DNA from: a virus
DNA: 64,000 nucleotides
Strand: one strand, 5' to 3'
IMG/VR virus record: IMGVR_UViG_3300036985_006490
Coordinates: 1-64,000 of that record
In this document: piece by piece, positions 15,515 to 23,987 of the stretch
Position numbering within the stretch: position 1 is the stretch's first letter
How the letters are laid out: each line of letters starts with the position of its first letter
Position numbers and translations under genes: made by a program
Notes under the pieces: generated by a model
Seen by the model: only the letters and a program-made list of their open reading frames with translations
Told to the model about the DNA's origin: nothing
Database searches by the model: none

Positions 15515-16090
15515 ATGGATATGAGACAAATTATAAAATTATTCTTCGTTTTGTCATTAGTTATTATGACATCTTGTTTAACTCAACAACGAGTAGTTTA
15601 TAGAGACTGCGATTGTGACACCACAACATTTGGTTTTGGATGGAATAATAACCCTTATTGGGGGTTAAACGACACTTATTGGGGTTGGAATCGTTGGAAT
15701 TCATGGAATTACTCTCCATATCAGCATATTCCAAGACATTACATCTACCCTAATAGAATTCCACCATCACAACCTTCAAGATACGAAAGAAGACAATCTA
15801 TTGGTGCCAGACCAAGTAGATTACAACAAAATGAGCCTATAATATACGAGAAAAGACCTTCCATACCACAAATTCAGAGAAATCCTCAACCAAGTCGTGT
15901 AGATAATGTATATCCACAAAGGTCTCAACCAAGTCGTGTAGATAATGTATATCCACAAAGGTCTCAACCAAGTAGGGTTCAAAATAACACTCCAAGTCGG
16001 TCAGAAACACCTTCAAGGGTTCAACAACGTCAAAATACACCTGTTACAACTCAACCAACAAGAAGTAGGGTTCAAAACAGAGAAAATTAA
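15515..16090 (+). CDS. Lipoprotein with a low-complexity Q/P/S/R tail
   Basis: Lipobox IMTS-C; Trp/Asn-rich segment; QPSR repeats. Confidence 0.75.
   Translation: MDMRQIIKLFFVLSLVIMTSCLTQQRVVYRDCDCDTTTFGFGWNNNPYWGLNDTYWGWNRWNSWNYSPYQHIPRHYIYPNRIPPSQPSRYERRQSIGARPSRLQQNEPIIYEKRPSIPQIQRNPQPSRVDNVYPQRSQPSRVDNVYPQRSQPSRVQNNTPSRSETPSRVQQRQNTPVTTQPTRSRVQNREN
15885..15973 (+). repeat. 39-bp in-frame tandem repeat (2 copies plus a partial)
   Basis: ctcaaccaagtcgtgtagataatgtatatccacaaaggt twice. Confidence 0.9.
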
Positions 16091-16296
16091 GGTTTTTTTG
16101 GTTTTTTGGACGATTTTTCCTTCCATTCTAACCAAAAACCTGTCGCAACAATGACATTCATACCAAAAGACATCAAAATTTCATGTAAATCTTGGTAAAT
16201 GTTCGTTGTTAGGTGTACATGACCAACAATCCAGAATGGAATTGATAAATTTGATGCAATCCACTTGATTAGAAACTTAATAAACTTCAATTTCAT
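16087..16296 (-). CDS. Small membrane protein
   Basis: Two hydrophobic segments. Confidence 0.65.
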   Translation of the reverse strand: MKLKFIKFLIKWIASNLSIPFWIVGHVHLTTNIYQDLHEILMSFGMNVIVATGFWLEWKEKSSKKPKKP

Positions 16297-16747
16297 GTAA
16301 AAAATGTTCTAATTTGATGTTTTCGTCTGAAAAATGTCTTTTTAGGTCTAAAAATTGCTTTACAACACCATATGAGAACCCATATCTCTCACTAAGTTCC
16401 CATTTTTTCACATTTCCTCTCGTAATTCCGTCAATATAGTAGGAAACGTCTATACTTCTACGTGATATTTGGTTAATTGAGTATCCAAAACTGCTTTCAA
16501 ACCACTTTTTTAGTAAAATCTGATATTGTTTTTGTTCCAAAGAGAAAATATAGAAAAAATCATCAAAAATCTTCGGATTATAGTGTAATTTACCCTCACT
16601 ATTGTATTGAAAATACCAATTTCGTTCATCCAAATCAAGAATCCATAACTCTTTACCATACGGATAGTAAATTTTATCCGATAATAGTTCAAAAAGTCGT
16701 TTAGAAATGAATTTCTTTAGTTTTACGTTGTCAATTATATCCACCAA
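16277..16747 (-). CDS. Paralog of the 20968 N-terminal domain (WF-domain family, no leader)
   Basis: LWILD....WYFQY..EGKL.Y...FDDFF.IFSLE......L..WFE. Confidence 0.7.
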   Translation of the reverse strand: MVDIIDNVKLKKFISKRLFELLSDKIYYPYGKELWILDLDERNWYFQYNSEGKLHYNPKIFDDFFYIFSLEQKQYQILLKKWFESSFGYSINQISRRSIDVSYYIDGITRGNVKKWELSERYGFSYGVVKQFLDLKRHFSDENIKLEHFLHEIEVY

Positions 16748-17022: not shown

Positions 17023-17736
17023 TTAATCTTTTTTAAAGACGAGTTTATCACTTGCCTCACTGTAGTCATTCTTTACTGTTGAAAGTCGGTAACCCTGTTG
17101 TGATAAATAAGATTGAAGTTTCTGACTATCTTGTTGAGATAAATCAGGTCCTTTATAAACCGCTCTTTTACCGTTTAATCTACCTACGATTAAACCACCC
17201 TTAACTAATCTATTATAAAGGTCTGAAGGCGACTCTGCGGTTGCAGGTGTAGTTCCTGCTGCTGGTGTAGTTCCTGCTGCTGGTGTAGTTCCTGCGGCTG
17301 GTGTTGTTGCCACGGGTGCCGCAGCAGATGCCGCAGATGGAGCTGTTGTTATCGTTGCTGCCGATGGTGTTCCACCATATTGTCCTCCTGGAGTAGGTGC
17401 TGCTGCAGTTGCCGCTGATGAAATCTCTGTAGAAGGCATTACATTTTTCGCATCAGATGTCGCTTGTTGACTCTGTTCTTTTCTTGCATTCTTCGTGGCA
17501 ACAACCTTTTCTAACGCATCTTGAGTTAATTTACCCCAATCTCCGTCAACACCATCTCCTGTGGAACCTGTTTTTCCTAAATCAACCTTGTATTTATCTA
17601 CCAATATTCTTTGAATTTGTTTAATAACATCCTCAACTGTTGCTGCAGGGGCATCTTGTTCTGAAATAACCATACCTCTTTGATATCCCAAAAGGTATTT
17701 CATTTTATTTAATTCTTCGTTTACTAAATGTTTCAT
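17023..17736 (-). CDS. EELNKMK-leader protein with a PG-binding-like motif and an Ala/Thr/Pro linker
   Basis: MKHLVNEELNKMK...ISEQ; VDGDWGKLTQDAL; AGTTPA x3. Confidence 0.75.
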   Translation of the reverse strand: MKHLVNEELNKMKYLLGYQRGMVISEQDAPAATVEDVIKQIQRILVDKYKVDLGKTGSTGDGVDGDWGKLTQDALEKVVATKNARKEQSQQATSDAKNVMPSTEISSAATAAAPTPGGQYGGTPSAATITTAPSAASAAAPVATTPAAGTTPAAGTTPAAGTTPATAESPSDLYNRLVKGGLIVGRLNGKRAVYKGPDLSQQDSQKLQSYLSQQGYRLSTVKNDYSEASDKLVFKKD

Positions 17737-18425: not shown

Positions 18426-20870
18426 TTACTTTTTCAAATGGTTAAATCTGAATGTTATTAACTCTTCATCCTGATTTCCCAACTTAGGACCGAGATATTG
18501 TCTGAAGTTTTGTCGTAGTTTTGTTTCGATTTCCTTTTCAACCTTCTCAGGTGTTACATTTGGTATTTCTCCTTTGAGGTAATTTTCGGGTGTATCAATT
18601 TGTACTCCCGCTCGTGTTTTCAAAACATCATAGATATCCACATTGACAATATTAACATCATCAGTTTCCTCTACGGAAGAAATTTTGAACTTGATGCTTG
18701 TGTTAGGAACTTCACCATATAAAGATTTTGTGGTTGAAATTTTTGGGGAGGGGTTAACGTCTCGGAATGATTCTTTCTTTTTCTTCATGACATACTCATG
18801 AGAAAATCCACTTTCCAACAACTCCATTTCCCTTTTTGACATCAGGTAAACTTTGGTGTCTATCTCATTATTGTATGTGTACGGTGAGGATCTGAGCATT
18901 TGTTTGCTTGTGCTATTGCTATATCTATCAAAATTTTCATACCACTTACCCTCTTTGTAAATGTAAACAGGGTACCATCCATAAGATTTCACAACATAAT
19001 ATTTAACACCGTTTCTATCTTTTGTCCAATATCCTTGCAAGTTTGACCCTTCGAACGGAAGTTGAGCTTTTGTAAAATCACCAGATTGGTAGTTGGGAGT
19101 TTTTTGACCACGTTTGTTTCTTGGGTCAATAAAAGTTTCTTTCGTTAATCCAGAATAATCACCATCCTCTCTGTAGTTAAGGAGGTAAAGTTCCAACATA
19201 TAAGTTGCATATTCCTTACGAATTCCAAACAAAGGGAGATATTCCTTTATGATATTCAGTAATTCTTTTTTGGTTTTGGCGGTTTTCTTGTATTCATTAA
19301 ATAATTTGAACAATCTTACGATGACTTTGTCTGATGCAATCTCGAAGTCCTCGTTCATCATATCAAAATCTTCATCATCAAATTCATCTTGACATGTTGT
19401 TTGGTGATGTCCCAATAATCCGTCTTCGAACCAATCTTTACACACCATGGTCATCAAACCAATTTGTTCATGAAAGTTCCAATCACCTGAATACACATAC
19501 GGCTCCAATTCTTCTTGAAAGATAAAATCATCTATTGCTTTATTTATAACAGCGTCCGCATATTCAAACTCATTATCAAATTGATCACACAACTTTGGAA
19601 ACTCTGTTTCGGCATGATATATAAAATCCTGCATGGTCTTCTTATTAAACCTTCTTCTCAACTTTATCATAAAGTCGGATGTTTGTTCAACAATCCTTTT
19701 GAGTTGAGATTCTGTTAAAATATAATCTTTTTTGATTTTTGATTCTGAAGATTGTGTTGGTATTGTGCGTTTTGGATCGTTCCAACCCAGTAAAGGATAC
19801 TTTGAACTTAAATAAATATCTTTCATCGGTTCCATAGAAAGAGCATTTACGAGTTCAGATTCTATAGTTCCAAAATCTCTAAAACCAATTCTTATCAGTT
19901 TAATTCCGTTATCCAAACAAAATTTGTTTTTTGCCAAATCGTTTTCTACTCTTTCATTGAATGCCACTAAACCTTTGAATCGTCCTTCTTTGGGGAAGAA
20001 ATGTGGTTCCCCGTCAAATTCCGCAATCACTTTCGTTCCATCTTCCTTAACAAATAAAGCATCCGCTTTTAACCTGTTTCTTAGTCCTATCCCTTTTATA
20101 CTGTAAGCCCCGATTCTTTTATTTTTTTCAATCTTATATCCCAAAGATTTTAATGAATCTAACATTTTAGATTCTCCCTTCCAATCAACTCCTTTATTTT
20201 TATTGCAGATAGGACAAGCAAATTCGAAGTTAATCTCGTTTGCTCGGGCCCAATCGGGGAAAAGTGTTACTGGGTTTTCATGATTATCACTAACACACTT
20301 GATATTTTTTACGACCAATCTAGTTTGATTAGATCCGTCACCTCGTGGAATTAAGTCAAATTCGGCATCTGTAAAATCAAGGGGCAAGTCTTTAGGAACC
20401 CTAGTCATAAACACACCAATCTTACCCTCCTTACTTTGTGGAAATCTTATGTTACGATGCTCTAAATAACATTTTTTACAGGAATATTGTGTTAAAATAT
20501 CTAATCTAGTCTCATCTATCTCTCCATGAACTACTCCTTCTGAGTCTGTTTTTTCACATATTATTCCCTTGATGGTTTTGTTACTGTTTTCATTTCTACC
20601 ATAGGCAACATTTTCAAAATTATATTGAGGGAATTTTTGTTTTAGTTCTTCAGTGATTTGTTTATTTTCTTTTTCTTTCAAATCAGACAATAGATTTTGC
20701 ATAGAAAGATTTTGGTCACCAGTTTTAGTTTTTGTGTTTCCAATCCATCGTGATATACTAATGTATTCTGGATCTTTACGAAATTCGTCCACAGTATTGA
20801 ATCTCTCAATATACTTCTTAACTGAATCCATGTCCCATTTCAACGGTCGTACTTCCAAAATTACTTTCAT
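18426..20870 (-). CDS. Multidomain protein: Zn-ribbon plus Vsr/DUF559-like PD-(D/E)xK endonuclease, fused to an internal LTESQL leader and two further domains
   Basis: CKKC, CPIC, KGE, ADALF...IAEFDGEPHF, ND..KN.FC..NGIKLIRI; internal YILTESQLKRIVEQ. Confidence 0.75.
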   Translation of the reverse strand: MKVILEVRPLKWDMDSVKKYIERFNTVDEFRKDPEYISISRWIGNTKTKTGDQNLSMQNLLSDLKEKENKQITEELKQKFPQYNFENVAYGRNENSNKTIKGIICEKTDSEGVVHGEIDETRLDILTQYSCKKCYLEHRNIRFPQSKEGKIGVFMTRVPKDLPLDFTDAEFDLIPRGDGSNQTRLVVKNIKCVSDNHENPVTLFPDWARANEINFEFACPICNKNKGVDWKGESKMLDSLKSLGYKIEKNKRIGAYSIKGIGLRNRLKADALFVKEDGTKVIAEFDGEPHFFPKEGRFKGLVAFNERVENDLAKNKFCLDNGIKLIRIGFRDFGTIESELVNALSMEPMKDIYLSSKYPLLGWNDPKRTIPTQSSESKIKKDYILTESQLKRIVEQTSDFMIKLRRRFNKKTMQDFIYHAETEFPKLCDQFDNEFEYADAVINKAIDDFIFQEELEPYVYSGDWNFHEQIGLMTMVCKDWFEDGLLGHHQTTCQDEFDDEDFDMMNEDFEIASDKVIVRLFKLFNEYKKTAKTKKELLNIIKEYLPLFGIRKEYATYMLELYLLNYREDGDYSGLTKETFIDPRNKRGQKTPNYQSGDFTKAQLPFEGSNLQGYWTKDRNGVKYYVVKSYGWYPVYIYKEGKWYENFDRYSNSTSKQMLRSSPYTYNNEIDTKVYLMSKREMELLESGFSHEYVMKKKKESFRDVNPSPKISTTKSLYGEVPNTSIKFKISSVEETDDVNIVNVDIYDVLKTRAGVQIDTPENYLKGEIPNVTPEKVEKEIETKLRQNFRQYLGPKLGNQDEELITFRFNHLKK

Positions 20871-20967
20871 ATCTATAAATACCCAATAAAAACAAAATCC
20901 ACTCTATTATAAAATAGGATTGTTATATTGAAAAAAAAACAATATATTTGGTGTTATAATCGATGCT

Positions 20968-21894
20968 ATGAATCCACGTCTCAAAAAAATCATGTTCAGT
21001 AAGTTAAATGATGATTTATCCAAGGTTGAAATAATTGTTTCCGAAAATAAATCCATTTGGTTCATCGACCGTGCAAATAAGTATTGGTATTTTGAATTGG
21101 AAAAATCAGGTAAATTATGGTGGAGGTATGAATTTTTCACCGATTTTTTTATTCTTTTTTCTCTCGAAATTAATGATTTTCAACCTATACTCTCTGAATG
21201 GGTGGAGGGAATACTCAATCGTGGGGTATCTGCAACGACTTCCTTATCATATAGACCATATATCGTGGTGGAGGGAATACTCAATCGTGGGGTATCTGCA
21301 ACCGGAGACCTTGGCATGGAAAGAATTGCCACGGTGGAAAAGATTTTTGATAGTAATGTAAACATGACTACGAGATCCGGGCACAGGCTTCATAGCACTG
21401 TGGAAGGTATCCTCAATCATGGATACAGAAAAGGATCTCGTAAAGTAGATGAGGTGCTCAATCATAAGGTGGCTATAACAGAATACTGTGGCATTATCCC
21501 AAGTTGTGATTTAGAAGAGGTACTCAATCACAAGGTGGTTTCAACCTTACAAAGTCCCGATATCGACCCATCATTTGTGGAAGCAGTCCTTAATCGTGAG
21601 ATTAACGAAATAGATGGAGGAGAGTTGTTAGATAATATTACGCTGGAAAAAGTTCTCAATCATAAGGTAGTTTCAATTTCACATGCAAATGAACAAAATG
21701 AATTAATACAACAAATTCTTGTTCATGAATTAATATATGAAGTTGAATCTGCAACTCCTTTGGACACCCCAGCACACGATTCGGTGGATGAAGTATTATC
21801 ATACAAAGTAACCAGAACCATACCAGACCTGAACGAATCACTTACAGAAATCGATATTTTATTGAACTCAATAGTACCACTTGAAATTCCTTGA
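20968..21894 (+). CDS. WF-domain protein with a C-terminal array of 22-aa repeat/variable-spacer units
   Basis: VExxLNxxVxxT plus about 10 variable aa, roughly 11 units; TATATTTG at 20943-20950. Confidence 0.85.
   Translation: MNPRLKKIMFSKLNDDLSKVEIIVSENKSIWFIDRANKYWYFELEKSGKLWWRYEFFTDFFILFSLEINDFQPILSEWVEGILNRGVSATTSLSYRPYIVVEGILNRGVSATGDLGMERIATVEKIFDSNVNMTTRSGHRLHSTVEGILNHGYRKGSRKVDEVLNHKVAITEYCGIIPSCDLEEVLNHKVVSTLQSPDIDPSFVEAVLNREINEIDGGELLDNITLEKVLNHKVVSISHANEQNELIQQILVHELIYEVESATPLDTPAHDSVDEVLSYKVTRTIPDLNESLTEIDILLNSIVPLEIP
21201..21876 (+). repeat. In-frame array with a 66-bp period: 36-bp repeats and 30-bp unique spacers
   Basis: GGTGGAGGGAATACTCAATCGTGGGGTATCTGCAAC identical at 21201-21236 and 21267-21302; degenerate copies near 21333, 21399, 21444, 21510, 21576, 21642, 21783 and 21849. 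Confidence 0.85.
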
Positions 21895-22398
21895 CGACCT
21901 GAAACATGCCGAATAAAGTTTTGGAAATAATTTCTTTATAATAAAAAATAGTAATAATCCTCCCAAAGCAAATGTTGCCACCGCAGCCACAGCGGGTGGC
22001 ATCGCAACCCCCATAAACACCGCAGTCGACATGACTTGTTCGTTCTGTTGTCTTTCTTGTTTTCTGAAATCCTTGAATTGTCTTTTCAACTTTATTAATT
22101 CTGATAATGAGGCAGATTTCATCTTTTCCTGTAATTCGTTAATCTTCTGTTTCGCCTCACCTTGTTCTTCCTTTGGGACACTACTAAGGTTAACATCAAC
22201 AGGGGCATTAGGGTTTGTACAACCAAGGATATTTTGGAAATCTTCCGATGATATATTCTCTCCAACCTTCTGATTAAATATTGACGCAACCTTATCCATC
22301 TCCTCACTTTTAGGTTGATTAACAGAAGAGGCTTCCATCATCACTTTTTTAACCAATCTTGTTAAATCTGACTCTGTTAATCTTATAACTTTTTTCAT
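21868..22398 (-). CDS. RLTESDL-leader protein with a C-terminal TM
   Basis: MKKVIRLTESDLTRLVKKVMME. Confidence 0.75.
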   Translation of the reverse strand: MKKVIRLTESDLTRLVKKVMMEASSVNQPKSEEMDKVASIFNQKVGENISSEDFQNILGCTNPNAPVDVNLSSVPKEEQGEAKQKINELQEKMKSASLSELIKLKRQFKDFRKQERQQNEQVMSTAVFMGVAMPPAVAAVATFALGGLLLFFIIKKLFPKLYSACFRSSRNFKWYY

Positions 22399-22484: not shown

Positions 22485-22868
22485 ATGGAAAACCCTAAAG
22501 TTCATAATGTAACGGAATGCCCCTCATGTAAAATTCCAAAAGGATGGGGTGAAGAAATCATTATCACAAATAATGAATTGTATTGTGGTAAATTATTGTG
22601 TTTCAAGGAAGGTGCGAAATTCTCAATGCACTACCACATGATTAAAGATGAAACTTGGTATGTTGATGAAGGTCAATTCATTTATAGATGGATTGATACA
22701 GAAACAGCGCAAGTCAATGAACAAATCCTTAATGTCGGAGATGTCGTAAGACAACGACCAGGACAACCACATCAACTCGAGGCTCTAACCAAAGGTGTGG
22801 TCTTTGAAGTGTCAACAGAACACTTCGATTCGGATTCATATAGAGTATGGAAGGGGGATACACTATGA
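22485..22868 (+). CDS. Cupin (sugar isomerase-like)
   Basis: KGWGEE, SMHYHMIKDETWYV, PGQPHQL, EVSTEHFDSDSYR. Confidence 0.85.
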   Translation: MENPKVHNVTECPSCKIPKGWGEEIIITNNELYCGKLLCFKEGAKFSMHYHMIKDETWYVDEGQFIYRWIDTETAQVNEQILNVGDVVRQRPGQPHQLEALTKGVVFEVSTEHFDSDSYRVWKGDTL

Positions 22869-23266
22869 AGATTTGGTTAAATGGTTGTTTTGATGTCCTA
22901 CATCACGGGCACTTCAAATTAATACAACACGCAGCATCATTCGGTGGTGAATTAATAATCGGAATCGATTCTGATGAACGAGTTAAAAAACTAAAAGGAG
23001 AAGGAAGACCATTCCATTCTGAAAGTGAAAGAGCATTCAACCTTAAACAAATCAAAGGAGTTGATATCGTAATGGTGTTTGATTCTGATGAAAAGTTAAG
23101 AGAACTTCTTGAACGTTATAAACCTGATAAATTTTTCATCGGATCAGATTATATTGGAAAAGAAATAATCGGACAAGAGTTTGTAAAGCAAGTTGTAATC
23201 TTCAACAGATTAGATAAATTTTCAACCACAGATATTTTAAGTTATGAAAATAACAATAATAGGTGA
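22865..23266 (+). CDS. RfaE domain II / HldC-like nucleotidyltransferase
   Basis: NGCFDVLHHGH, IDSDERVKKLKGEGRP, GSDY, STT. Confidence 0.9.
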   Translation: MKIWLNGCFDVLHHGHFKLIQHAASFGGELIIGIDSDERVKKLKGEGRPFHSESERAFNLKQIKGVDIVMVFDSDEKLRELLERYKPDKFFIGSDYIGKEIIGQEFVKQVVIFNRLDKFSTTDILSYENNNNR

Positions 23267-23987
23267 ATTATGTCATGATGTTTTCATCTATGGAAATGTC
23301 ACAAGATTATGCCCCGAAGCACCAGTTCCAGTCTTGACCGATGTTTATACTGAAACGAATTTTGGAATGGCAGGCAACGTCAAAGAAAATCTATTGGCAC
23401 ATAATCCCTCATTAAAAATCTCATTAATCAATCAAAACAACCCAATCAAGAAAACAAGATACCACGATGACAAGACAAACCATATGTTTCTTAGAGTCGA
23501 TGAAGGTGAAGATAATATTGATTCATTAATACTTACACCAGAAAAAATTGAAGATATATCAGAATCCAATTTGGTGATTGTTAGTGATTACAACAAAGGA
23601 TTTTTGAGTGAAGAAACCTTGATTCAAATTGGAAAGTTGTCAAAACTATCCGTTATTGATACCAAAAAAACTATTTCTAATAATTTAATTGATTCATTTA
23701 CATTTATTAAGTTAAATGAACACGAATATCAAAGAAATAAAAACATTTCTGATAAAAACAAAGATAAGTTTATAATTACATTAGGAATGAACGGAGCAAA
23801 ACATAATGATACAATTTTTTCATCTCCATCACCAAAACAAACCATAGACGTAAGTGGCGCTGGAGATACATTCACAGCGTTTTTTAGTTTGAAATATTAT
23901 GAAACAAAAAATATTTCAGAATCAATAACATTTGCAAACCAAATGGCATCAATTGTAGTATCCAAAAGAGGCGTAGCAACTCCCTAA
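23244..23987 (+). CDS. RfaE domain I / HldA-like PfkB sugar kinase
   Basis: RLCPEAPVPV, GMAGNV, SDYNKG, DVSGAGDTF. Confidence 0.9.
   Translation: MKITIIGELCHDVFIYGNVTRLCPEAPVPVLTDVYTETNFGMAGNVKENLLAHNPSLKISLINQNNPIKKTRYHDDKTNHMFLRVDEGEDNIDSLILTPEKIEDISESNLVIVSDYNKGFLSEETLIQIGKLSKLSVIDTKKTISNNLIDSFTFIKLNEHEYQRNKNISDKNKDKFIITLGMNGAKHNDTIFSSPSPKQTIDVSGAGDTFTAFFSLKYYETKNISESITFANQMASIVVSKRGVATP

What the first reader, a model, noticed from the sequence alone, without database searches (positions are those of the whole stretch)
21201..21876. Translated repeat-spacer array with CRISPR-like geometry (36 bp + 30 bp) inside a protein-coding gene
Seen: two identical 36-bp repeats (GGTGGAGGGAATACTCAATCGTGGGGTATCTGCAAC, 21201 and 21267) flank a unique 30-bp spacer. 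The 66-bp period continues for about 11 units (two irregular) with unrelated spacers and repeats that decay towards the 3' end. The whole array is in frame and encodes VExxLNxxVxxT plus 10 hypervariable residues. Plain tandem duplication would copy the spacer too, so an identical repeat with an unrelated spacer points to spacer insertion or targeted hypermutation at one end. The repeat can fold (ATACTC/GGGTAT upper stem, GGTG/CAAC base). Established: Bacteroidota type VI-B (Cas13b) repeats are 36 nt, GTTG...CAAC, with 30-nt spacers. Inference: either a peptide-diversifying cassette array, or a CRISPR-derived or CRISPR-mimicking array adopted as coding sequence. Caveats: no cas or RT gene is in the window, distal copies conserve amino acids better than nucleotides, and paralog 16277 shows one similar 12+10 unit.
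Basis: partly seen in the sequence, partly recalled or inferred. Interest (0 to 1): 0.88.

Follow-up and report, generated by a model that had tools for sequence, protein, structure and literature searches.

The report
Phage protein tail built like CRISPR array
The tail of an early gene of a giant freshwater phage is laid out base for base like a CRISPR array (36-base repeats, unrelated 30-base inserts, new units at one end) yet is kept readable as protein, which suggests that DNA capture is writing new 10-residue peptides into a protein.

Summary
ORF 20968-21894 (+) encodes a well-folded 78-residue N-terminal domain followed by about 11 units of 66 nt, two of them irregular. The first two repeats (21201, 21267) are identical over 36 nt and their 30-nt spacers are unrelated.

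What comparison with relatives showed:
- **Unit boundaries are set at the DNA level.** They lie one base out of register with the codons, and this holds across the whole protein family.
- **Spacer turnover is polarised.** Among 110 orthologues the units on the trailer side are shared, while strain-specific units sit next to the N-terminal domain.
- **Spacers look foreign.** The 34 spacer families are mutually unrelated. They are about 50% GC at all three codon positions, in a genome of 32% GC.
- **Selection keeps the array coding.** No spacer has an in-frame stop, and old spacers evolve under purifying selection as peptides.

What argues against a working CRISPR array:
- The repeats share their length and termini with Bacteroidota type VI-B repeats but lack their hairpin.
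- No cas1, cas2 or reverse transcriptase gene is in the record.
- I found no source for any spacer. My near-matches to bacterial genes were at the level of a control.

Best reading (about 0.55): a CRISPR-type array grows by spacer integration, probably through the host's Cas1-Cas2, and is translated. The scan has noted the same kind of array before in other lake phages. I found no paper describing it.

The parts
20920..20950 (+). Putative host-type (Bacteroidota) promoter: TTG at 20920-20922 and a TAnnTTTG element at 20943-20950, 17 nt before the start codon
   Evidence: Read directly. The consensus is from my own knowledge of Bacteroidota promoters. The simple sigma-70 scan lists 20920-20948 as a 9/12 match. 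Not tested experimentally.
20968..21894 (+). Whole gene, 308 aa: N-terminal domain plus translated array
   Evidence: ORF. There are 323 homologues at E <= 0.01. No Pfam family matches, and the PHROG hits are only weak.
20968..21200 (+). N-terminal domain (residues 1-78), which also occupies the place of a CRISPR leader
   Evidence: AlphaFold2 with 104 sequences gives pLDDT 95.2 and the layout helix, four strands, two helices. No clear structural relative: best Z 4.3, no Foldseek match at E <= 0.001. The family has 223 representative clusters. A paralogue without an array lies at 16277-16747 (-).
21201..21236 (+). Repeat 1 (36 nt), next to the leader
   Evidence: Exact copy of repeat 2. Its first base is the last base of the Trp codon.
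21237..21266 (+). Spacer 1 (30 nt), found only in this phage among those sampled; 33% GC
   Evidence: It forms its own family among 110 orthologues. No second copy in the 162.8-kb record. No exact 26-nt match in viral contigs.
21267..21302 (+). Repeat 2 (36 nt)
   Evidence: These are the only two copies with at least 24/36 identity in the record.
21303..21332 (+). Spacer 2, an old spacer shared by most orthologues (family 0); 53% GC
   Evidence: Its DNA variants differ by 3 synonymous and 1 non-synonymous codon.
21333..21398 (+). Unit 3: degenerate repeat (17/35 identical to repeat 2) plus an old shared spacer (family 2); 57% GC
   Evidence: Variant codons: 7 synonymous, 2 non-synonymous.
21399..21443 (+). 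Unit 4, truncated to 45 nt; an anchor unit found in register in 110 of the 121 orthologues parsed
21444..21884 (+). Units 5-11: decayed, AT-richer repeat-spacer units that keep the amino-acid motif better than the nucleotides. Repeat starts at 21444, 21510, 21576, 21642, 21708, 21783 and 21849.
   Evidence: Repeat copies are 61-64% identical. GC and GC3 fall along the array. These units are present or absent in different combinations among orthologues.

Best explanation
The 3' two-thirds of the gene is a CRISPR-type repeat-spacer array that the ribosome reads in frame. One unit of 36 + 30 nt equals 22 codons.

Shown:
- The units are defined at the DNA level.
- New, mutually unrelated 30-nt inserts accumulate beside the N-terminal domain, which sits where a CRISPR leader would.
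- Repeat copies are identical at that end and decay towards the 3' end.
- Units are also lost and reshuffled by recombination between repeats.
- Only stop-free inserts persist, and retained inserts then evolve as selected peptide sequence.

Inferred:
- Each insertion duplicates the leader-proximal repeat and is made by a CRISPR spacer integrase. The most likely candidate is the Cas1-Cas2 of a Bacteroidota host acting in trans, as it does on cas1-less type VI-B arrays.
- The inserts are foreign DNA, probably from the host.

The result is an early phage protein with a folded head and a probably flexible tail. The tail consists of constant 12-residue motifs alternating with arbitrary 10-residue peptides. 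What the protein does is unknown. A variable bait or binding tail is my guess.
For: - **DNA-level boundaries.** The repeat starts at the wobble base of the preceding codon and ends after two bases of the Thr codon. In 132 units from 54 representative proteins, the last spacer residue can be encoded by an NNG codon in 95% of cases, against 61-69% at the other nine positions. Trp plus Met make up 21% there, against about 3% elsewhere.
- **Period.** It is 22 aa in 132 of 170 neighbouring pairs and 44 aa in 11.
- **Adjacent repeats.** They are identical over 35-36 nt while their spacers match at chance level, in at least 8 lineages.
- **Gradient.** Repeat identity falls from the leader end: window 35, 17, 14 of 35; L025 34, 35, 30, 19 of 35; L031 36, 36, 35, 35, 32 of 36.
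- **Polarity.** There are 22 spacer families in 110 orthologues. Sixteen different families occupy the first position and six the position next to the anchor. The trailer-side order is shared.
- **Turnover.** L026 has an N-terminal domain 222/225 nt identical to the window's but three different leading spacers.
- **Unrelated spacers.** 3 of 561 pairs exceed the 99.5th percentile of shuffles; 2.8 are expected.
- **Composition.** Leading spacers are 50.5% GC, with 0.53/0.50/0.49 at codon positions 1-3. The genome is 32% GC and GC3 of the N-terminal domain is 0.33. Amino-acid content follows codon degeneracy.
- **Reading frame.** There are 0 stops in 640 in-frame codons of 64 spacers. In each of the other five frames 14-28 spacers carry a stop.
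- **Old spacers.** 19 synonymous against 11 non-synonymous variant codons.
- **Real arrays.** Arrays with the same geometry and termini are mostly from Bacteroidota. The 3' half of the phage repeats resembles them: up to 13/16 identical; shuffle P from below 0.0005 to 0.055.
- **Precedent.** The F. columnare VI-B array has 36-bp repeats, is filled in trans by II-C Cas1, takes many host spacers and is transcribed from the leader end (PMC8092290).
Against: - No protospacer was found for any spacer of the window or its clade.
- In the sister array L034, the matches of 25-26 of 30 spacer bases to bacterial genes, including rpsJ, are no more frequent than hits obtained with non-array phage DNA of the same length (7 of 191 genomes). 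They therefore carry no weight.
- No cas1, cas2 or reverse transcriptase gene is in the 162.8-kb record, which is about 49% complete. The host is unknown.
- The repeats lack the type VI-B hairpin and match no Rfam CRISPR repeat family.
- Whole-repeat identity to real repeats does not exceed that of chance hits with the same termini.
- The repeat is plainly under amino-acid selection: Leu and Val codons vary synonymously between lineages. An ordinary CRISPR array would not show this.
- One spacer family changes its place in the order, and domain and trailer similarities disagree, so recombination is frequent.
Confidence: 0.55

Rival explanations
1. An ordinary tandem-repeat protein. The 36-nt segments are kept alike by gene conversion or unequal crossing-over between co-infecting phages. 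The 30-nt segments are old alleles that diverged to saturation under diversifying or relaxed selection and are shuffled as cassettes. No insertion machinery is involved.
For: The repeat encodes a conserved peptide motif with synonymous variation between lineages. Cassettes are present or absent in different combinations, and one changes its place in the order. Domain and trailer similarities are discordant, so recombination is active. A few spacer pairs look distantly related. No cas genes and no protospacers were found.
Against: It does not explain GC3 of 0.49 in the spacers of a 32% GC genome, where GC3 of the rest of the gene is 0.27-0.33. It does not explain the family-wide conservation of a wobble G before each repeat while other synonymous sites inside the repeat vary. 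It does not predict the one-sided gradient of repeat identity or the strain-specific units confined to the leader end. Spacer families show no excess similarity over shuffles.
Confidence: 0.2
2. A diversification mechanism of the phage's own, not Cas-based, duplicates the first repeat and fills in or replaces a 30-nt cassette. Candidates are an unknown recombinase, or a polymerase that makes near-random sequence.
For: Base composition of leading spacers is almost uniform (A 0.27, C 0.24, G 0.26, T 0.23) and their peptides follow codon degeneracy. No source was found for any spacer. No cas genes are in the record.
Against: No candidate enzyme is linked to the gene: its neighbours differ between related phages. 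No reverse transcriptase is present. The 36/30 geometry and the termini coincide with Bacteroidota arrays, which this idea leaves as coincidence.
Confidence: 0.12
3. The array works mainly as RNA. It is either a phage-borne cas-less CRISPR array whose crRNAs use the host's Cas13b or Cas9, or a repeat decoy that blocks them. Translation would be secondary.
For: Same repeat length, spacer length and termini as type VI-B arrays, with transcription from the leader side. Phage-borne cas-less arrays and repeat mimics are known (PMC7162821, PMC6858448; RNA anti-CRISPRs from my own knowledge).
Against: The phage repeats do not form the VI-B hairpin. Their energies are -1.1 to -7.5 kcal/mol with z from -1.1 to +1.35, against -9.4 to -11.2 kcal/mol and z from -1.5 to -3.1 for real repeats. 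The frame is kept open through every spacer. Old spacers are under purifying selection as peptides. Distal repeats keep amino acids rather than bases.
Confidence: 0.06
4. A target of a diversity-generating retroelement, or a multi-core precursor of a ribosomal peptide natural product whose cores are hypervariable.
For: Hypervariable short segments lie between constant ones. A long conserved N-terminal part could act as a leader.
Against: No reverse transcriptase and no template copy of any spacer is in the record. Variation is not limited to particular bases. No modifying enzyme or protease is conserved next to the gene. The N-terminal part is a compact folded domain.
Confidence: 0.03

Closest known systems
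Type VI-B (Cas13b) CRISPR arrays of Bacteroidota, filled in trans by type II-C Cas1-Cas2 (Flavobacterium columnare; PMC8092290)
   Same: 36-nt repeats and 30-nt spacers. Repeat termini of the same kind. No cas1 or cas2 beside the array. New units at the leader end. Transcription from the leader end. Degenerate distal repeats.
   Different: The array lies in a phage and is fused in frame to a protein domain. It is kept free of stops, and its repeat is under amino-acid selection. It lacks the repeat hairpin and has no cas13b nearby. No protospacers were found.
Cas-less CRISPR arrays and mini-arrays carried by huge phages and archaeal viruses (PMC7162821, PMC6858448)
   Same: Virus-borne repeat-spacer arrays without adaptation genes, presumed to rely on host machinery.
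   Different: Those are non-coding and their spacers match competing viruses or host genes. Here the array is coding sequence and no targets are known.
Hypervariable segments between conserved glycine-rich motifs in T-even tail-fibre adhesins (gp38); from my own knowledge, not checked here
   Same: A T4-like phage protein in which short conserved motifs flank hypervariable stretches and act as recombination points.
   Different: No fixed nucleotide geometry, no polarity and no foreign base composition. That protein is part of the virion, whereas this one looks like an early gene.
Cyanobactin-type multi-core precursor genes, with hypervariable core cassettes between recognition sequences identical at the nucleotide level; from my own knowledge
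   Same: Constant flanks identical at the DNA level alternate with unrelated short coding cassettes behind a conserved N-terminal part.
   Different: No processing or modifying enzymes are linked, there is no constant cleavage motif, and the unit boundaries are out of register with the codons.
Diversity-generating retroelements
   Same: Targeted variation of a short coding stretch in a phage protein.
   Different: No reverse transcriptase, no template repeat, no adenine-specific pattern; whole cassettes differ.

Membership tests
CRISPR array (generic) | Near-identical direct repeats of constant length | tested here: met
   Two exact 36-nt repeats in the window. Five copies at 35-36/36 in L031 and in L034.
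CRISPR array (generic) | Unique, mutually unrelated spacers of constant length | tested here: met
   30-nt inserts. The 34 families show no excess similarity over shuffles. The period is 22 aa in 132 of 170 pairs.
CRISPR array (generic) | Polarised turnover: strain-specific spacers at the leader end, shared spacers and decayed repeats at the trailer end | tested here: met
   Spacer-order table of 110 orthologues. Repeat identity gradients.
CRISPR array (generic) | Spacers match foreign or host DNA (protospacers) | tested here: inconclusive
   No match in the phage's own record, in GenBank phages or in viral contigs. In about 1,700 sampled Bacteroidota genomes only 25-27 of 30 spacer bases matched, at the rate of a control. 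No exhaustive exact-match search could be run.
CRISPR array (generic) | Adaptation genes (cas1, cas2) in the same genome | tested here: not met
   None in the 162.8-kb record. The record is about 49% complete and the host genome is unknown.
CRISPR array (generic) | Non-coding transcript processed into crRNAs | tested here: not met
   The array is an open reading frame under selection. RNA processing itself cannot be tested with these tools.
Type VI-B direct repeat | 36-nt repeat with 30-nt spacers and GTTG...CAAC-type termini | tested here: met
   The geometry is exact. The termini are GGTGGA...CAAC in the window and GTTGGA...CAAC in L034. The same pattern retrieves arrays of Bergeyella, Capnocytophaga, Porphyromonas and Chitinophagaceae.
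Type VI-B direct repeat | Conserved repeat hairpin (outer 4-bp stem plus inner stem) | tested here: not met
   Phage repeats fold no better than shuffles; real repeats do.
Type VI-B direct repeat | Internal sequence similarity to known repeats, or an Rfam CRISPR-DR match | tested here: inconclusive
   No Rfam hit. Best whole-repeat identity is 25/36, similar to chance hits with the same termini. The 3' half is up to 13/16 identical, with shuffle P from below 0.0005 to 0.055.
Diversity-generating retroelement target | Reverse transcriptase and a template repeat near the variable region | tested here: not met
   No RVT_1 match. No second copy of any spacer in the record.
Solenoid or other structural repeat protein | Repeat units predicted to pack into a regular fold | tested here: inconclusive
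   AlphaFold2 gives pLDDT below 50 over residues 79-296, with short helices at the constant motifs. The ESM Atlas model is also poor. The alignment was shallow and unit indels blur it.
Multi-core RiPP precursor | Conserved neighbouring modification or protease genes | tested here: not met
   The neighbours differ among related phages and include no such enzyme.

The most novel reading that the evidence does not exclude
A CRISPR spacer integrase, most likely the host's Cas1-Cas2 acting in trans, inserts 30-nt pieces of foreign DNA into a phage protein-coding gene. Each surviving insertion adds a new 22-residue unit to the protein. This would be natural protein diversification by spacer capture. 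The phage keeps and later domesticates the inserts as peptides.
Probability: 0.45. Interest if true: 0.95.

Novelty: categorically new. Interest (0 to 1): 0.85.

Why it matters
If spacer integration really extends this gene, CRISPR adaptation has a second natural output. Besides writing immune memory for the cell, it would write coding sequence for a virus. That would be a new way of making protein diversity, alongside retroelement mutagenesis and cassette recombination. It would show a phage exploiting, or soaking up, the host's adaptation machinery.

The family is large: 223 representative clusters and hundreds of orthologues in lake metagenomes. It offers a clear test substrate, namely a short junction between a domain and a repeat. 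Even if no integrase is involved, one fact needs an explanation. The unit boundaries are fixed at the DNA level, out of register with the codons, across a whole protein family.

Tried and rejected
- **Family libraries.** Pfam, PHROGs and the ESM Atlas gave no family for the whole protein.
- **Whole-protein model.** AlphaFold2 was uninformative for the tail.
- **N-terminal domain fold.** Foldseek and VIA-align found no convincing relative.
- **Retroelement.** Rejected: no reverse transcriptase and no template copy.
- **Peptide-precursor idea.** Set aside because no enzymes are linked.
- **Rfam.** No hit.
- **Host-derived spacers.** I pursued this in a sister array (L034). Hits to rpsJ and another gene looked promising. 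A control query of non-array phage DNA then gave as many hits, so I discard them.
- **One hit in the window clade.** A 27/30 hit of an L024 spacer to a palindromic element of one Chitinophagales genome was not backed by other arrays.
- **Exact matches reported earlier.** Earlier notes of this scan claim exact spacer matches to Flavobacteriales chromosomes in other phages. I could not reproduce this for this clade.
- **Literature check of the repeat.** A full-text search for the B. zoohelcum repeat sequence found nothing. The repeat was later read directly from that genome.
- I resent it in gap notation.

Full report
**What is there.** The finding lies inside ORF 20968-21894 on the + strand, 308 aa. 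The window is the first 64 kb of a 162.8-kb IMG/VR virus record, estimated 49% complete and 32% GC. This is a jumbo phage, and earlier notes of this scan call it T4-like and freshwater. The two 36-nt copies at 21201 and 21267 are exact. The sequences that follow share 7 of 31 positions. Degenerate copies continue every 66 nt to 21884, with two irregular units. A TAnnTTTG element at 20943-20950 precedes the start codon. From my own knowledge, this is the Bacteroidota promoter consensus. It suggests early expression by the RNA polymerase of a Bacteroidota host.

**The protein.** Residues 1-78 form a compact domain. With an alignment of 104 family members, AlphaFold2 gives pLDDT 95.2, with one helix, four strands and two helices. 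Neither Foldseek nor VIA-align finds a convincing relative; the best Z is 4.3. The domain occurs in 223 representative clusters. One of its relatives is a paralogue in this window, 16277-16747 (-), which has no array. The tail is predicted with pLDDT below 50 and has short helices at the constant motifs. Most family members carry the same kind of tail. It consists of a constant 12-residue motif, homogenised within each lineage but different between lineages, alternating with 10 arbitrary residues.

**The unit is defined at the DNA level.**
- In the window and in every lineage with DNA in hand, the conserved block starts with the third base (G) of the codon before the first Val. It ends after the first two bases of the last Thr codon. 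That makes 36 nt of repeat and 30 nt of insert, one base out of register with the codons.
- I tested this on proteins alone. In 132 units from 54 representative proteins, the last residue of the variable 10-mer is one that an NNG codon can encode in 95% of cases. At the other nine positions the figure is 61-69%. Trp plus Met reach 21% there against about 3% elsewhere.
- Those residues have nothing in common chemically, so the constraint is on the base.
- Other synonymous sites inside the repeat do vary between lineages.
- The period is 22 aa in 132 of 170 neighbouring pairs and 44 aa in 11.

**The array evolves like a CRISPR array.**
- The 323 homologues differ in length by multiples of 22 aa.
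- In 110 orthologues that can be read in register there are 22 spacer families. The trailer-side spacers (families 0 and 2, then an anchor unit) are shared. The units next to the domain differ from strain to strain: 16 families occur in the first position and 6 next to the anchor.
- L026 has an N-terminal domain 222/225 nt identical to the window's, yet three different leading spacers.
- Repeat identity is highest at the leader end and falls along the array: window 35, 17, 14 of 35; L025 34, 35, 30, 19 of 35; L031 36, 36, 35, 35, 32 of 36.
- Units are also lost internally. One family changes its place in the order, and similarity of the domain and of the trailer disagree. Recombination between repeats therefore reshuffles units as well.

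**The inserts look foreign, and selection filters them.**
- The 34 spacer families are no more alike than shuffled sequences: 3 of 561 pairs exceed the 99.5th percentile, with 2.8 expected.
- The 48 leading spacers of the clade have nearly uniform base composition. They are 50.5% GC, with 0.53, 0.50 and 0.49 at codon positions 1 to 3. GC3 is 0.33 in the N-terminal domain, 0.27 in the distal array and 0.16-0.31 in other genes of the window.
- Their amino-acid content follows codon degeneracy. In other lineages the spacers are also GC-richer than their flanks, 38-46% against 29-35%.
- None of 64 unique spacers has a stop in the reading frame (0 of 640 codons). In each of the other five frames 14 to 28 of them do.
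- Spacers retained across many orthologues show 19 synonymous against 11 non-synonymous variant codons. Once fixed, they are selected as peptide.
- The repeat itself is also under amino-acid selection: its Leu and Val codons vary synonymously between lineages.

**Relation to real CRISPR arrays.**
- I scanned one genome per prokaryote species for two 36-nt units with the same termini and a 30-nt gap. The scan returned 63 stretches. The multi-copy ones were mostly Bacteroidota arrays, including Bergeyella zoohelcum, Capnocytophaga, Porphyromonas gulae, Ginsengibacter, Chitinophagaceae, Crocinitomicaceae and Draconibacterium.
- Whole-repeat identity to the phage repeats reaches 25/36, no better than single chance hits with the same termini. 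The 3' halves are more alike than shuffles: up to 13/16, with P from below 0.0005 to 0.055. I treat that as suggestive only.
- Real repeats fold into the expected hairpin (-9.4 to -11.2 kcal/mol, z -1.5 to -3.1). The phage repeats do not (-1.1 to -7.5 kcal/mol, z -1.1 to +1.35). No Rfam family matches.
- So what is kept is what an integrase with a ruler mechanism would need, namely length and ends. What a Cas13b effector would need, the hairpin, is not kept.
- In F. columnare the VI-B array has 36-bp repeats and lacks cas1 and cas2. It is filled in trans by the II-C Cas1, takes up many host-derived spacers and is transcribed from the leader end (PMC8092290). This is the closest working precedent.

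**What I could not show.**
- No cas1, cas2 or reverse transcriptase gene is in the record. No spacer has a second copy there.
- The arrays have no match in GenBank phages. The window's unique first spacer has no exact match in viral contigs.
- Earlier notes of this scan report the same kind of translated array in other lake jumbo phages. They state that sister-array spacers are exact copies of Flavobacteriales chromosomal genes.
- The L034 array against 401 genomes of the Crocinitomicaceae family gave matches of 25-26 of 30 spacer bases, to rpsJ and to one other gene. A further order-level sample gave the same.
- A control query of the same length from non-array DNA of the same phage gave hits of equal strength in 7 of 191 genomes. 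My hits are therefore at chance level.
- For the window's clade, one 27/30 hit in a Chitinophagales genome was not supported by other arrays. A class-wide sample gave nothing.
- The source of the spacers in this clade is thus unproven.

**Weighing.**
- An ordinary repeat protein homogenised by gene conversion explains the identical repeats and the shuffling. It does not explain the foreign base composition at synonymous sites, the conserved wobble G, the one-sided gradient or the leader-end novelty. I give it 0.2.
- An unknown phage-borne cassette generator is possible (0.12).
- A mainly RNA-level role is unlikely, given the missing hairpin and the strict reading-frame selection (0.06).
- A retroelement target or a peptide precursor is very unlikely (0.03).
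- Integrase-type insertion into a translated array fits the most observations (0.55), but its key step is an inference.

**Novelty.** Two full-text searches turned up virus-borne cas-less arrays but nothing describing a repeat-spacer array kept as coding sequence. The scan itself has seen this before on other DNA. The present window adds four things: an aged, partly decayed member with a well-sampled population; the family-wide codon-offset test; the spacer-order table; and a control showing that near-matches to bacterial genes need care.

Noticed in passing
window 22485-23987: A three-gene cassette just downstream: cupin, cytidylyltransferase-like and PfkB-like kinase, with PHROG names pointing to heptose-nucleotide synthesis. 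It is present in some related phages and absent in others, where the Fe-S_biosyn gene follows directly.
   Followed up: partly
window 18426-20870 (-): An 814-aa ORF upstream has an HNH or homing-endonuclease-like stretch at residues 65-337. Related phages carry quite different genes in this position, so the array gene sits in a plastic region.
   Followed up: partly
window 15885-15973: A perfect 39-bp tandem repeat, 2.3 copies, 100% matches, inside ORF 15515-16090 (+).
   Followed up: no
window 17242-17308: An 18-bp tandem repeat, 3.7 copies, 93% matches, inside ORF 17023-17736 (-).
   Followed up: no
window 16277-16747 (-): A paralogue of the N-terminal domain (E 3e-12) with a different C-terminal part and no array. 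Similar array-less members exist elsewhere (P0232, P0242, P0270).
   Followed up: partly
proteins P0124, P0164, P0226, P0261, P0269: Some family members carry an extra conserved N-terminal peptide before the domain. One of them (P0124) has two domain-plus-short-array modules in tandem.
   Followed up: no
window 21868-22398 (-): A 176-aa ORF on the opposite strand overlaps the last 27 nt of the array gene. It is present in several related loci and missing in others.
   Followed up: no
L116 (genome G574, contig C244, 1806-1840): A palindromic element with a short internal direct repeat in a Chitinophagales genome matches one spacer of L024 at 27 of 30 positions. Its nature is unknown and the match may be chance.
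   Followed up: partly
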